Assembly (NCBI RefSeq): GCF_056712565.1
Contig: NZ_CM160072.1
Reading direction: 5' to 3' (one strand)
Length of the DNA: 64,000 nt
This document shows positions 46,575 to 49,500 of the stretch, one piece after another. Made by a program: the position numbers. Every line of letters begins with the position of its first letter. Positions within the stretch are counted from its first letter, which is position 1.

Positions 46575-49500
46575 TAATCTTTTTGTTTGAAAAATAAAGT
46601 CTTAGCGTTCTGCGTTAAGACTTTTTTTATGGGTGCCGGATACAAAAAAGGCCGCAGGCTGTTACCCCTGCGGCCGGTTTCGGGCGCATATTGCCATCAC
46701 GGCAGCCTGACGCCCGTTTTCACCTTACTTCCGGTTACGCCACCAGCCGACAATCGCTGCGGTAATAATTCCCGCCAGGATCGGTGCTGCCAGGTCGTGC
46801 CAGAAAATCATGGCAAACTGCGCGAGCGTCATATAGCCGCCTTGTTGTAATGACAACATTTTGCGGCTATTCTTGAATTGTTGATGGTTCAAGATTAGCC
46901 CCCGTTCTGTTGTCAGGTTTTACCTCTCAACGTGCGGGGGTTTTCTCTTTCCAGCAACCAATGCCACCAGGGATAAAGCCCCCGCAACATTGCGCCTCAC
47001 CGGATAACGCCGGCTTGGTGTGGATACTACGTCGCAATTCATCTTCACTTCATCCCTGAAATGTTTGCATTGAAGAGTACATTCCGGCTTTTCAACAGCT
47101 GTTGCAGTGGTTTCGTGCAGGTTGTGGTACAGGCTCGCAATTCTGATTAACGACCTGTCCAGGTAGTATGAAGAAATACAATAAGCAGGAATTTATATTA
47201 TCTCCCCCGATTTCCGTCATCGGAGGAGATATAACTGTCAGGCAAATATCGTCATCAAATAGGCGGCAAACAGTGCCAGATGCGCTGCGCCATTGAGCAC
47301 GTTAGTACGTCCGGTGGAGAAGGAGATATGGCACAGCACTAAAGAGGCCACCATCACCACCATTTCTGGCGCACCAAGTGCAAACTGCAATTCGTTACCC
47401 GTCATAAAGGCAATTAGCGTGACGACAGGTACGGTAAGCGAAATGGTTGCTAACACTGAACCAAAGAACAGATTCATCGCGCGCTGGACCTGGTTGTTCA
47501 ACACTGCTTTTAACGCACCTAAACCTTCCGGCGACAGAATCAACAGAGCCACCAGGAAGCCAGTAAAGGCGACAGGGGCATTCATGCTGTCGAGCAATGT
47601 CTCCAGCGGGCTGGCGTTCATTTTGGTCACCGCAATAACGGCAATCAGATGGACAATCAACCAGATAGCATGCCACAGGCTGCTATGGGCAGACGGTTTA
47701 CCGTGGTGCGGGTCGTCATCATCACTGTCATCTTCGTGCTCGTAGACAAATAAACTTTGATGCGTTTTGGTCTGGATCAGCAAAAATACGCCATACATTG
47801 CCGCAGAAATTAATGCTACCAGTAACGCCTGACCTGTTGAAAAATTCGCCGCAGGCAGAGCCATTGGAAATACCAGTACGATTATCGCCAGGGGGAACAG
47901 CGCAATTAAATACTGCTTGATACCAAACAGATTCATATATTGGGTGGCAAACTTGCGTCCGCCCAACAATAATGAAAAGCCAACCAGCCCACCGGTAACA
48001 ATCATAATGATTGAATAGAGCGTATCACGCATTAGCGTTGGCGCGGCGTCGCCGGTTGCCATTAAAGCTGAAATCAAACTGACTTCAAGAATAACCACTG
48101 AAAGGCTAAGAATAAGCGAACCGTAAGGTTCTCCCAGGCGATGGGCTAATACGTCCGCATGACGGACAACACTAAAGGCGCTACTTAAAATACCAATAAG
48201 CGCAAGAAGATTGATGGCAATGACCACTGGTAGTGTCTGGCTGCCTCCCCACAGGAACAGCACTACCAGCGCCAGAACCGGGAAAATAAGCGAAGTCTCC
48301 TTGTGGCGGGTTTTTACCGCCTCTTGAGCATTTGACATTATGGTTATCCCTTTGCAGATGAATTTATCGAAAATGTAAAAAATAGGTAGGAAAAATAACA
48401 GAAATTGTCTGGATATCGGTAACATTTTACGAATTTTTACCCCGCTGTCGATTTTTTACTCATTTGGGCATAAAAATAAGTAATACGTTTAGACAATGTT
48501 TGTTTTAGCACTTCTTAAGAAGAGTCTGACATGAAAATTCTTATGTTTTGGCAAGAGTAGATATTGTTGACCACACTTAATGTTCAACTTTGTAAAAGGA
48601 GTCAACGATGCCGTATAAAACGAAAAGCGATCTGCCGGAAAGCGTAAAGCACGTGCTTCCGTCTCATGCCCAGGATATCTATAAAGAAGCGTTCAACAGC
48701 GCATGGGATCAATATAAAGATAAAGAAGATCGGCGTGATGACGCCAGTCGCGAAGAAACAGCGCATAAAGTGGCCTGGGCTGCTGTGAAGCATGAATATG
48801 CCAAAGGGGATGATGATAAATGGCATAAAAAATCGTAAAACTGGTAGCTTAGTTAAAGCTATTCGTGCGGTGTTGCCTTGCAAGTGGTCCGTGGATTGCA
48901 TATTGTCCCGTTAGTGGTTTCAAAATGAGCAGTAAAAATGTCCGGAAGACACCAAAAAGTTGTCGCAGGGAAGTATGCAGTGGCGGAGGTGTAAGGTGAT
49001 AACGCGTGATTTCTTGATGAATGCCGATTGTAAAACGGCATTTGGTGCCATTGAAGAATCACTCTTATGGTCAGCAGAACAACGGGCGGCTTCGCTGGCG
49101 GCGACGCTGGCTTGTCGACCTGATGAGGGACCGGTGTGGATCTTCGGTTATGGATCGTTGATGTGGAATCCGGCACTGGAGTTTACCGAGTCGTGCACCG
49201 GTACACTGGTTGGATGGCATCGCGCGTTTTGCCTGCGCCTGACCGCCGGGCGCGGGACTGCGCACCAGCCGGGACGAATGCTTGCACTGAAAGAGGGCGG
49301 ACGCACCACAGGCGTCGCCTATCGACTGCCAGAAGAGACGCTGGAGCAGGAACTAACCCTGCTGTGGAAGCGCGAGATGATTACCGGCTGTTATCTGCCA
49401 ACCTGGTGTCAGCTTGATCTTGATGATGGACGCACAGTAAACGCCATTGTGTTTATTATGGACCCGCGACATCCAGAATATGAATCTGACACTCGCGCTC

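What the first reader, a model, noticed from the sequence alone, without database searches (positions are those of the whole stretch)
46629..47237. Single ldr/rdl type I toxin-antitoxin copy between kdsA and chaA
A 35-codon ORF encodes MTLAQFAMIFWHDLAAPILAGIITAAIVGWWRNRK, a typical Ldr toxic peptide that the ORF track missed. K-12 carries tandem ldr/rdl repeats here (three as I recall); this interval of about 660 bp has room for only one unit. The antisense Rdl RNA and the ldr leader are expected immediately upstream on the opposite strand but I cannot delimit them by eye.
Basis: partly seen in the sequence, partly recalled or inferred. Interest (0 to 1): 0.3.

Follow-up and report, generated by a model that had tools for sequence, protein, structure and literature searches.

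The report
Single Ldr/Rdl toxin-antitoxin unit
The gap between kdsA and chaA holds one intact copy of the well-known E. coli Ldr toxin / Rdl antisense-RNA module, where K-12 has three; one copy is the usual state in the lineage this window comes from, so the finding is correct but ordinary.

Summary
The observation and the interpretation both hold. A 35-codon ORF on the minus strand (46832..46725) encodes MTLAQFAMIFWHDLAAPILAGIITAAIVGWWRNRK. It is a full-length Pfam Ldr_toxin match at 87.7 bits. A full-length Rfam rdlD match (83.6 bits, cut-off 50) lies at 46881-46946 on the plus strand, 48 nt upstream of the ldr ATG and antisense to the ldr leader. The 660-bp kdsA-chaA spacer contains one LDR unit of about 500 bp and no second copy anywhere in the window.

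K-12 has ldrA/B/C with rdlA/B/C at the same site, with a 535-bp period. The spacer is 100% identical to UTI89, S88, APEC O1 and ATCC 11775, where RefSeq already annotates the toxin. In an even-step sample of 58 informative complete E. coli genomes, 14 had one copy, 19 two, 22 three and 2 four; one further genome carried an IS3-family insertion and its count was not resolved. All 13 genomes closest to the window had one copy.

The K-12 inter-unit junction also occurs in E. whittamii and Escherichia sp. E1V33. The array is therefore older than E. coli, and the single copy is probably a collapse. A comparison of 49 units suggests an ldr mRNA whose ribosome-binding site pairs with its own 3' UTR. 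This is a known element of low interest.

The parts
46642..47138 (-). The single LDR (long direct repeat) unit as a whole: ldr transcription unit, antisense rdl, and about 110 bp upstream of the ldr promoter
   Evidence: Window positions 46642-47117 are 97-98% identical to all three K-12 units (query 65-540). Weaker homology, roughly 65%, to the K-12 inter-unit junction continues to about 47138 (columns 100-130).
46725..46832 (-). ldr CDS: 35-aa toxin MTLAQFAMIFWHDLAAPILAGIITAAIVGWWRNRK plus the TAA stop
   Evidence: Pfam PF13940 Ldr_toxin at 87.7 bits, positions 1-35 of 35. Matches PDB 5LBJ LdrD with E 2e-10. RefSeq protein WP_000170954.1 sits at the identical locus in ATCC 11775. The same protein is the kdsA-proximal copy in O157:H7 86-24 and TW10590.
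46881..46946 (+). rdl antisense RNA (antitoxin), 66 nt, complementary to positions -49 to -114 of the ldr leader
   Evidence: Rfam RF01813 rdlD at 83.6 bits (gathering score 50), full length. Fold of -27.3 kcal/mol with z = -4.5. A terminator-like stem followed by UUUUCU is at 46922-46946.
46845..46873 (+). Predicted rdl promoter: -35 TTGTAA (46845-46850), 17-nt spacer, -10 TATTCT (46868-46873), ending 8 nt before the Rfam start
   Evidence: Read by eye. It matches 8 of 12 consensus positions, so it falls below the scan threshold of 9 of 12 (one search found none). Inferred, not shown.
46833..47019 (-). ldr 5' leader of about 187 nt. It contains a 5' hairpin, the Rdl target, a stem-loop whose loop CCAUCAA pairs with the Rdl 5' tail, a pre-SD hairpin (46844-46857) and the SD-like AAGGCGG (46837-46843)
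   Evidence: Cross-genus conservation starts right after the -10 box. Hairpins have compensatory changes (9/19 GC<->CG; 173/178 CG 25, UA 19). The 5' end is predicted from the -10 box and was not mapped.
47024..47029 (-). Predicted ldr -10 box TAGTAT
   Evidence: T, A, A and T at hexamer positions 1, 2, 5 and 6 (TAnnAT) are invariant in 49 units from five genera, and sequence upstream of the box is not conserved across loci. No good -35 is present. Inferred.
46913..46990 (-). 25-codon upstream ORF in the leader (MLRGLYPWWHWLLERENPRTLRGKT), probably not a gene
   Evidence: Its start codon varies across homologues as ATG, GTG, ACG or GCG, while pairing with the Rdl-target strand is kept in 49 of 49 sequences (pairs 31/94, 32/93, 33/92).
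46681..46716 (-). ldr 3'-UTR hairpin CGGGCG...CGCCCG. In the alternative fold it pairs with the 5' GGCGC, the pre-SD region, the SD and the AUG
   Evidence: Local hairpin with compensatory change at pair 332/340 (CG 40, UA 4). The long-range alternative is 98.8% paired across 49 sequences and appears in the window's own minimum-free-energy fold.
46642..46675 (-). ldr intrinsic terminator: GGCCGCAGG/CCTGCGGCC stem followed by a T-run
   Evidence: 9 pairs, 8 of them G-C, then TTTTTTGT. Conserved, with compensatory changes at 4 of 9 pairs (helix 7).
46596..46631 (+). kdsA terminator (a neighbour, not part of the module)
   Evidence: a 13-pair stem followed by TTTTTAT.
47200..47230 (-). Hairpin just downstream of the chaA stop (ATCTCCTCCGAT...ATCGGGGGAGAT). 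Probably the end of the chaA transcript, separating chaA read-through from the ldr promoter
   Evidence: Read. Belongs to the chaA-side flank shared with K-12 LDR-C. Function inferred.

Best explanation
This is one intact copy of the chromosomal Ldr/Rdl type I toxin-antitoxin module, a 'long direct repeat' unit, at the conserved kdsA-chaA site of an E. coli of the B2-like lineage.

Anatomy. The minus strand carries a transcript of about 380 nt (roughly 47019 to 46642). It has a leader of about 187 nt, the 35-codon ldr ORF for a small inner-membrane toxin, a structured 3' UTR and an intrinsic terminator. The plus strand carries the 66-nt Rdl RNA (46881-46946). Rdl is perfectly complementary to leader positions -49 to -114, so it does not cover the Shine-Dalgarno sequence or the AUG.

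What the literature shows for K-12 homologues. Ldr overproduction stops growth or kills by damaging the membrane and collapsing ATP. Rdl co-expression prevents this at the level of translation. RNase III cleaves the ldr/rdl duplex.

What is inferred here. The full-length ldr mRNA folds so that its SD and AUG pair with its own 3' UTR and its 5' GGCGC pairs with the 3' GCGCC, giving a translationally inert, hok-like fold. These long-range helices compete with local hairpins. The single-stranded 5' tail of Rdl (UUGAUGG) first contacts the loop CCAUCAA of a leader stem-loop. The full duplex then forms and locks or destroys the leader.

Copy number. The locus varies from one to four units among E. 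coli through unequal recombination between 535-bp repeats. The single copy here is most probably a collapsed array.
For: Identity of the parts: Pfam Ldr_toxin at 87.7 bits, full length. Rfam rdlD at 83.6 bits, full length. Core 97-98% identical to K-12 LDR-A, -B and -C. K-12 annotation of ldrA-C and rdlA-C at the same site. RefSeq annotates 'type I toxin-antitoxin system toxin Ldr family protein' at the 100% identical locus of ATCC 11775.

One copy only.

Lineage norm: all 13 sampled genomes with at least 98.5% flank identity have a spacer of 648-661 bp. The wider sample gave 14 genomes with one copy, 19 with two, 22 with three and 2 with four. Three of these span-based counts were checked against annotation.

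Array older than E. coli: the K-12 inter-unit junction matches the junction of E. whittamii at 83-86% over 120 nt, and that of Escherichia sp. E1V33 at 92-94% over 50 nt. Both species are more distant from the window than K-12 is. Their kdsA identity is 92-94% against 98% for K-12, and their chaA identity is 89-90% against 99%.

Toxin-antisense pairing conserved: all 22 ldr units in 14 outgroup loci have a full-length rdlD match at the same relative position.

mRNA structure: RNAalifold consensus. Local hairpins are 96.8% paired, with 11 pairs changed on both sides and 0 of 500 shuffles reaching that. Long-range helices are 98.8% paired, against 32-51% when the partner is slid. The window mRNA has a minimum free energy of -165.8 kcal/mol, z = -5.5, with the SD and AUG inside the long-range helices.

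Function, from the literature: PMC4147584, PMC8309996, PMC12643268 and PMC7373196.
Against: Nothing contradicts the identification, but several steps are not demonstrated. Expression, toxicity and repression were not tested and cannot be tested here. Both transcript 5' ends are predicted from -10 boxes only, and the promoter scan found no site at its threshold. The long-range fold was derived from the same alignment used to score it. Most of its pairs never vary or vary on one side only, with 4 double-change pairs and 13 of 500 shuffles reaching that. Part of it lies in coding sequence, which is constrained anyway. How Rdl represses translation is stated to be unknown in reviews (PMC8309996). 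The direction of copy-number change is not settled. Kluyvera and two of three Pseudocitrobacter genomes have one copy at this site, and so does the divergent E. coli E69.
Confidence: 0.93

Rival explanations
1. The single copy is an assembly artefact: a tandem array of 535-bp units was collapsed into one unit when the genome was assembled.
For: Tandem repeats that are 97% identical can be collapsed by short-read assemblers, and other E. coli carry two to four units here.
Against: The identical 660-bp spacer occurs in many independently finished complete genomes, including UTI89, S88, APEC O1, IHE3034 and ATCC 11775. In all, 320 records are at least 99% identical. Every one of the 13 sampled close relatives has the same spacer length. 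The unit joins the LDR-A-type left flank to the LDR-C-type right flank with no discontinuity.
Confidence: 0.02
2. The unit is a decaying, non-functional relic: the toxin is no longer expressed, or the antitoxin has been lost.
For: Chromosomal type I loci do decay. The Pseudocitrobacter vendiensis copy at the same site has a premature stop, W31*. The window carries a 1-nt insertion in the leader relative to the K-12 units, which removes the 20-codon upstream ORF that overlaps the ldr start as ATGA in K-12 ldrB and ldrC. There is no good -35 box for ldr.
Against: The ORF is intact and matches the family model over its full length. The same protein is the kdsA-proximal copy in O157:H7 and TW10590. 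Rdl scores 83.6 bits. The -10 box, all conserved hairpins and both terminators are intact. The 'insertion' allele CCATCAAC is old, because it is shared with Escherichia sp. E1V33 and E. coli E69. The experimentally studied ldrD also lacks the coupled ATGA ORF.
Confidence: 0.05
3. The single copy is the ancestral state retained in this lineage, and arrays arose later in other E. coli. This rivals only the evolutionary part of the best explanation.
For: Both Kluyvera genomes and two of three Pseudocitrobacter genomes have a single unit between kdsA and chaA. The divergent E. coli E69 also has a single unit, with the same toxin and the same leader allele.
Against: The inter-unit junction of K-12 is shared with two Escherichia species that branch outside the window/K-12 pair. 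An array with that junction therefore existed before E. coli diversified, unless it was transferred by recombination. The window's toxin is identical to the kdsA-proximal copy of multi-copy strains, while its upstream flank is that of the chaA-proximal copy. That pattern is what a deletion between the outer units would produce.
Confidence: 0.25

Closest known systems
E. coli K-12 ldrA/rdlA, ldrB/rdlB, ldrC/rdlC (LDR-A, -B, -C) at kdsA-chaA
   Same: It occupies the same chromosomal site with the same orientation and architecture. The core is 97-98% identical in nucleotides. The toxin differs by one residue from each K-12 copy: G29 against S29 in LdrA and LdrC, and I9 against T9 in LdrB.
   Different: There is one unit instead of three. 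A 1-nt insertion lies in the variable leader loop, which is also the 5' tail of Rdl (CCATCAAC against CC-AGAAC or AC-CAGAC). As a result the TTG at -60 is in frame with ldr, rather than opening a 20-codon ORF that ends in ATGA.
E. coli K-12 ldrD/rdlD (LDR-D), the experimentally characterised member
   Same: It is also a single, non-tandem unit with the same architecture. Leader positions about -170 to -90 are almost identical. The toxin is 57% identical.
   Different: It sits at a different locus, bcsG-yhjV, and belongs to a different toxin subgroup. The LdrD group and the LdrB group are separated in PMC2887945.
hok/sok (with mok) of plasmid R1 and chromosomal copies
   Same: Both have a small membrane toxin, a long leader, a short antisense RNA that overlaps the leader divergently rather than covering the toxin SD, and a predicted fold-back between the mRNA 5' region and its 3' end. 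The ldr leader gives a weak sub-threshold match to Rfam 'sok' that ends exactly at the ldr AUG (27 bits, gathering score 59).
   Different: There is no sequence-level family membership: the match is below the Rfam gathering score and Ldr is not a Hok protein. No conserved mok-like coupled reading frame was found, and candidate upstream ORFs change frame or lose their start between copies. 3' processing has not been shown for ldr.
Fst / RNAI-RNAII (par of pAD1) superfamily
   Same: Ldr and Fst toxins were reported to be homologous, sharing a transmembrane helix followed by a conserved Trp and a charged tail (PMC2887945).
   Different: In Fst-like loci the antisense RNA overlaps the 3' end of the toxin gene, whereas here it overlaps the 5' leader (PMC2887945). 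This was not tested here.

Membership tests
Ldr/Rdl (LDR) type I toxin-antitoxin | 35-aa hydrophobic toxin of the Ldr family (Pfam PF13940) | tested here: met
   87.7 bits against a cut-off of 27, positions 1-35 of 35. E 2e-10 to LdrD, PDB 5LBJ.
Ldr/Rdl (LDR) type I toxin-antitoxin | cis-encoded Rdl antisense RNA of about 60-66 nt (Rfam RF01813) on the opposite strand | tested here: met
   46881-46946 on the plus strand, 83.6 bits against a gathering score of 50, full model. Stable fold with z = -4.5.
Ldr/Rdl (LDR) type I toxin-antitoxin | The antisense RNA overlaps the long ldr 5' UTR, not the SD or start codon | tested here: met
   The Rdl complement spans -49 to -114 relative to the ATG, and the SD-like AAGGCGG is at -5 to -11. 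This is the same geometry as K-12 rdlA-D and as 22 units in other genera.
Ldr/Rdl (LDR) type I toxin-antitoxin | Lies within a unit of about 500 bp homologous to the K-12 LDR sequences | tested here: met
   476 bp at 97-98% identity to LDR-A, -B and -C.
Ldr/Rdl (LDR) type I toxin-antitoxin | Tandem direct repetition of the unit (the origin of the name) | tested here: not met
   One unit only. This feature does not define the toxin-antitoxin module, because LDR-D in K-12 is also single.
Ldr/Rdl (LDR) type I toxin-antitoxin | Ldr overexpression is toxic, Rdl represses it, and the ldr mRNA is stable while Rdl is unstable | not testable with these tools
   Known for K-12 ldrD and ldrA only (PMC4147584, PMC8309996, PMC12643268).
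hok/sok type I toxin-antitoxin | Match to the Rfam sok / hok-leader model at the gathering score, and a Hok-family toxin | tested here: not met
   RF01794 at 27 bits against a gathering score of 59. Pfam reports only Ldr_toxin.
hok/sok type I toxin-antitoxin | A conserved upstream reading frame (mok-like, the proposed 'ldrX') translationally coupled to the toxin | tested here: inconclusive
   A 20-codon ORF ending in ATGA exists in K-12 ldrB and ldrC, and within a longer ORF in ldrA, but not in the window or in ldrD. The start of the 25-codon upstream ORF is not conserved as a start codon. The published definition of ldrX could not be read.

The most novel reading that the evidence does not exclude
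The most novel reading the evidence leaves open concerns how the family works, not this locus. The ldr mRNA would be a hok-like two-state RNA. Its ribosome-binding site and start codon are silenced by pairing with its own 3' UTR, and its 5' GGCGC pairs with the 3' GCGCC. The strongly conserved leader, including the apparent 25-codon upstream ORF, would be kept by alternative RNA pairings rather than by a coupled leader peptide ('ldrX'). On this reading Rdl acts by trapping or cleaving the leader, not by blocking translation of a leader ORF. I could not read the primary papers (Kawano 2002, 2012), so part of this may already be published.
Probability: 0.3. Interest if true: 0.35.

Novelty: already known. 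Interest (0 to 1): 0.12.

Why it matters
The finding matters little in itself. Ldr/Rdl has been a textbook chromosomal type I toxin-antitoxin family since 2002, and the toxin gene at this exact locus is already annotated in hundreds of identical genomes.

There are three modest points of value. First, the rdl antitoxin is not annotated in the RefSeq record of the identical locus. Tables taken from the TADB database for the adherent-invasive E. coli strains LF82 and NRG857c list only ldrD/rdlD, so this module may be under-catalogued. Whether those two strains carry this locus was not checked here. Second, copy number at kdsA-chaA is a simple lineage-correlated polymorphism of one to four units. 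It could serve as a marker and as a natural dosage series for asking what these modules do. Third, the comparison of 49 units gives a testable structural model for a regulatory mechanism that reviews still call unknown.

Tried and rejected
1. The consensus promoter scan of 46500-47300 found no site at its threshold. The rdl and ldr promoters given here are therefore by-eye assignments (8 of 12 consensus matches for rdl), supported only by cross-genus conservation of the ldr -10 box.

2. NCBIfam has no model that matches the peptide.

3. I looked for the proposed 'ldrX' coupling ORF. Candidate upstream ORFs differ in frame and start between the window, K-12 A-C and ldrD, so I rejected a conserved coupled leader peptide as the explanation for leader conservation. 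I could not check the original definition. Kawano 2012, Fozo 2008 and Kawano's DNA Research 2002 paper are not held in the library.

4. I considered that a T-to-A change in a TTGCAA motif upstream (about 47070) might disable a -35 box. I rejected this because the conserved -10 box lies elsewhere (47029..47024) and that motif is not conserved across loci.

5. The weak Rfam 'sok' match to the ldr leader (27 bits) is below threshold and is treated as a resemblance only. The suhB and P36 hits at E of about 0.5-0.9 fall on the ldr terminator and are chance matches.

6. A literature search using the term 'B2' failed because the term is too short. I found no paper that specifically reports the copy number at this locus by phylogroup.

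7. The assembly-collapse and pseudogene readings were considered and rejected (see the rival explanations).
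Full report

Yes. The minus strand has an ATG at 46832 and a TAA ending at 46725. The 35 codons between them encode MTLAQFAMIFWHDLAAPILAGIITAAIVGWWRNRK. The mechanical ORF list shows it only inside a 55-aa ORF that starts at an in-frame TTG (46892).

kdsA ends at 46577. chaA, on the minus strand, ends at 47238.

tblastn with this peptide and with K-12 LdrD finds no other significant copy in the 64-kb window (E 2e-20 against a next-best of 0.09). The spacer has no second blastn match in the window, and the repeat finder reports only short chance repeats around it.

**2. What is it?**

The peptide matches Pfam PF13940 (Ldr_toxin) over its full length at 87.7 bits. It matches the solved LdrD peptide 5LBJ with E 2e-10. 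NCBIfam has no model for it.

Rfam gives a full-length rdlD match (RF01813) at 46881-46946 on the plus strand: 83.6 bits against a gathering score of 50, and one of only two gathering-level hits in the whole window. This RNA folds into the expected long hairpin followed by a U-run (-27.3 kcal/mol, z = -4.5). It is complementary to positions -49 to -114 of the ldr leader, so it does not cover the SD-like AAGGCGG (46837-46843) or the AUG.

An intrinsic terminator for ldr lies at 46675..46650 with a T-run. The kdsA terminator is at 46596-46624.

**3. Comparison with K-12**

MG1655 has ldrA/rdlA, ldrB/rdlB and ldrC/rdlC in a 1729-bp kdsA-chaA spacer, with a 535-bp period.

The window's spacer aligns as follows. 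Bases 3-540 match the kdsA-side flank plus LDR-A at 97.0%. Bases 65-660 match LDR-C plus the chaA-side flank at 98.0%. Bases 65-540 match LDR-B at 96.9%. So there is exactly one core of about 476 bp, between the left flank of the K-12 array and its right flank.

The toxin differs from each K-12 copy by one residue. It is identical to the kdsA-proximal Ldr (WP_000170954.1) of O157:H7 86-24 and of TW10590.

**4. How usual is one copy?**

The spacer is 100% identical to that of UTI89, S88, APEC O1, IHE3034, the type strain ATCC 11775 and many others. In total, 320 records are at least 99% identical. RefSeq annotates one 'type I toxin-antitoxin system toxin Ldr family protein' there, and no rdl.

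To count units at this site I searched with a 5-kb query made only of the two flanks and listed 60 genomes at even steps down the ranking. The length of the spacer in each gives the copy number:

| Spacer length | Inferred copies | Genomes |
|---|---|---|
| about 660 bp | 1 | 14 |
| about 1195 bp | 2 | 16 |
| about 1905 bp (two units plus an IS200C insertion) | 2 | 3 |
| about 1730 bp | 3 | 21 |
| 2113 bp (extra 383 bp between the first two units) | 3 | 1 |
| about 2230-2263 bp | 4 | 2 |
| 2425 bp (IS3-family insertion) | not resolved | 1 |
| partial match | uninformative | 2 |

Annotation confirmed the inference in three cases: four Ldr CDSs in E275a, two in O157:H7 86-24, and three in TW10590.

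All 13 sampled genomes with at least 98.5% flank identity to the window have one copy. One copy is therefore the norm for this lineage. By the strains it matches, that lineage is phylogroup B2; this assignment rests on my own knowledge of those strains. It is not a peculiarity of this sequence or an assembly error.

**5. Direction of change**

A scan of one genome per bacterial species for the FWHDLAAP motif returned 44 loci.

ldr sits between kdsA and chaA in these genomes:
- Kluyvera (two genomes): one copy each.
- Pseudocitrobacter (three genomes): one copy; one copy with a premature stop; and two copies 1383 bp apart.
- E. whittamii: two copies.
- Escherichia sp. E1V33: two copies.
- The divergent E. 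coli E69: one copy.

The K-12 inter-unit junction matches the E. whittamii junction at 83-86% over 120 nt and the E1V33 junction at 92-94% over 50 nt. Both species are further from the window than K-12 is. Their kdsA identity is 92-94% against 98% for K-12, and their chaA identity is 89-90% against 99%.

An array with this junction therefore predates E. coli, and the single unit here is most simply a collapse by unequal recombination. The mix of a kdsA-proximal-type toxin with a chaA-proximal upstream flank fits that. Retention of an old single-copy haplotype is not excluded, because E69 carries the same toxin and the same leader allele.

**6. How it most likely works**

From the literature on K-12 homologues:
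- LdrD and LdrA overproduction causes rapid growth arrest, nucleoid condensation, ATP loss and membrane damage.
- RdlD co-expression prevents toxicity by inhibiting translation.
- Because Rdl does not cover the ribosome-binding site, a mok-like leader ORF, 'ldrX', was proposed but never confirmed. Recent reviews call the mechanism unknown (PMC4147584, PMC8309996, PMC8167048).
- RNase III cuts the ldrD/rdlD duplex (PMC7373196).
- YajC neutralises LdrA and LdrD (PMC12643268).

Promoter. Conservation begins abruptly at a TAnnAT box (window TAGTAT, 47029..47024). I take this as the ldr -10, which gives an mRNA of about 380 nt.

Antitoxin. All 22 units in the 14 outgroup loci scanned have a full-length rdlD hit at the same offset.

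Upstream ORFs. Candidate ORFs are not conserved as reading frames. The 20-codon ORF ending in ATGA in K-12 ldrB and ldrC is absent from the window and from ldrD. The ATG of the 25-codon ORF (46990) varies as ATG, GTG, ACG or GCG, yet always stays paired to the opposite strand of a helix.

Structure. RNAalifold predicts two competing sets of helices.
- Local hairpins: the 5' hairpin, the Rdl-target hairpin, the pre-SD hairpin, the 3'-UTR hairpin and the terminator. These are 96.8% paired, with 11 pairs changed on both sides, which 0 of 500 shuffles reached.
- Long-range helices: the 5' GGCGC pairs with the 3' GCGCC, the leader CAAUGUUGCGGGG pairs with the Rdl-target strand, and the pre-SD region, SD and AUG pair with the 3' UTR. 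These are 98.8% paired, against 32-51% when the partner is slid, but have only 4 double-change pairs, reached by 13 of 500 shuffles.

The window's own mRNA folds this way (-165.8 kcal/mol, z = -5.5).

I therefore infer a hok-like, translationally silent full-length mRNA. I also infer that the variable single-stranded 5' tail of Rdl (UUGAUGG) nucleates on the loop CCAUCAA of a leader stem-loop. That loop is the most variable part of the unit and may give copy specificity.

These structural points are inference. The structure was derived from the same alignment used to score it, and part of it lies in coding sequence.

**7. Comparison with what is known, and verdict**

Every sequence-testable defining feature of the Ldr/Rdl family is met. 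Only tandem repetition is absent, and LDR-D of K-12 also lacks it.

The locus resembles hok/sok in layout. Its leader gives a sub-threshold 'sok' match (27 bits against a gathering score of 59), but it is not a member of that family.

The element is already known and already annotated on the toxin side.

Noticed in passing
window 5629-5707 (+): This is the only other gathering-level Rfam hit in the window: C0299 sRNA (RF00119), 111.9 bits, full length.
   Followed up: no
L001 (ATCC 11775, locus identical to window 46578-47237): RefSeq annotates the Ldr toxin CDS here but has no rdl ncRNA feature, whereas the K-12 record lists rdlA-C. TADB-derived tables for the adherent-invasive E. coli strains LF82 and NRG857c list only ldrD/rdlD (PMC11205521). 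The kdsA-chaA module may be under-catalogued; whether those two strains carry it was not checked.
   Followed up: partly
window 46830-46983 (-): The ldr leader gives a weak match to the Rfam 'sok' model RF01794 (27 bits, gathering score 59, E 7e-4 in a 1-kb search). The match is on the ldr-sense strand and ends exactly at the ldr AUG. This hints at a shared leader architecture with hok.
   Followed up: partly
window 46884-46891 (leader loop and Rdl 5' tail): There is a 1-nt insertion relative to the K-12 units (CCATCAAC against CC-AGAAC or AC-CAGAC). The same allele occurs in Escherichia sp. E1V33 (its kdsA-proximal unit) and in E. coli E69. This loop is the most variable segment of the 49-unit alignment and may set Rdl/ldr copy specificity.
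   Followed up: partly
L037:1443-1547 (Pseudocitrobacter vendiensis, kdsA-chaA locus): The ldr copy has a premature stop (W31*), while its rdl still scores 85 bits. This looks like a toxin pseudogene with a retained antitoxin.
   Followed up: no
hits H53, H65, H67 and H83: Some E. coli genomes carry an IS200C insertion (spacer about 1905 bp), or an IS3-family insertion (spacer 2425 bp), inside the kdsA-chaA LDR array.
   Followed up: no
L049:2646-3670 (E. coli TW10590): This is a three-copy array in which the first two ldr genes are 917 bp apart instead of 535 bp. The extra 383 bp or so was not identified.
   Followed up: no
L013:9379-10854 (uncultured Pseudocitrobacter MAG): Two ldr/rdl units lie between chaA and kdsA, 1383 bp apart rather than about 535 bp. 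This points to an independent duplication with a different unit length.
   Followed up: no
L047 (503-bp contig labelled Bacillus sp. EB106-08-02-XG196, coverage 0.66): The contig encodes a peptide almost identical to E. coli LdrD. It is very likely an enterobacterial contaminant contig in a Bacillus assembly.
   Followed up: no
window 47238-48425 (-): The longest chaA ORF starts at an ATG at 48425 (395 aa). RefSeq and K-12 annotate chaA as 366 aa, starting at 48338.
   Followed up: no
window 47031-47107 (-): About 77 bp upstream of the predicted ldr -10 box is 97% conserved among the K-12 units and the window. A GTGAAGTG motif at the -35 position is shared by kdsA-chaA units of Kluyvera and Pseudocitrobacter, but not by LdrD-type loci. 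It could be a locus-specific regulatory site.
   Followed up: no
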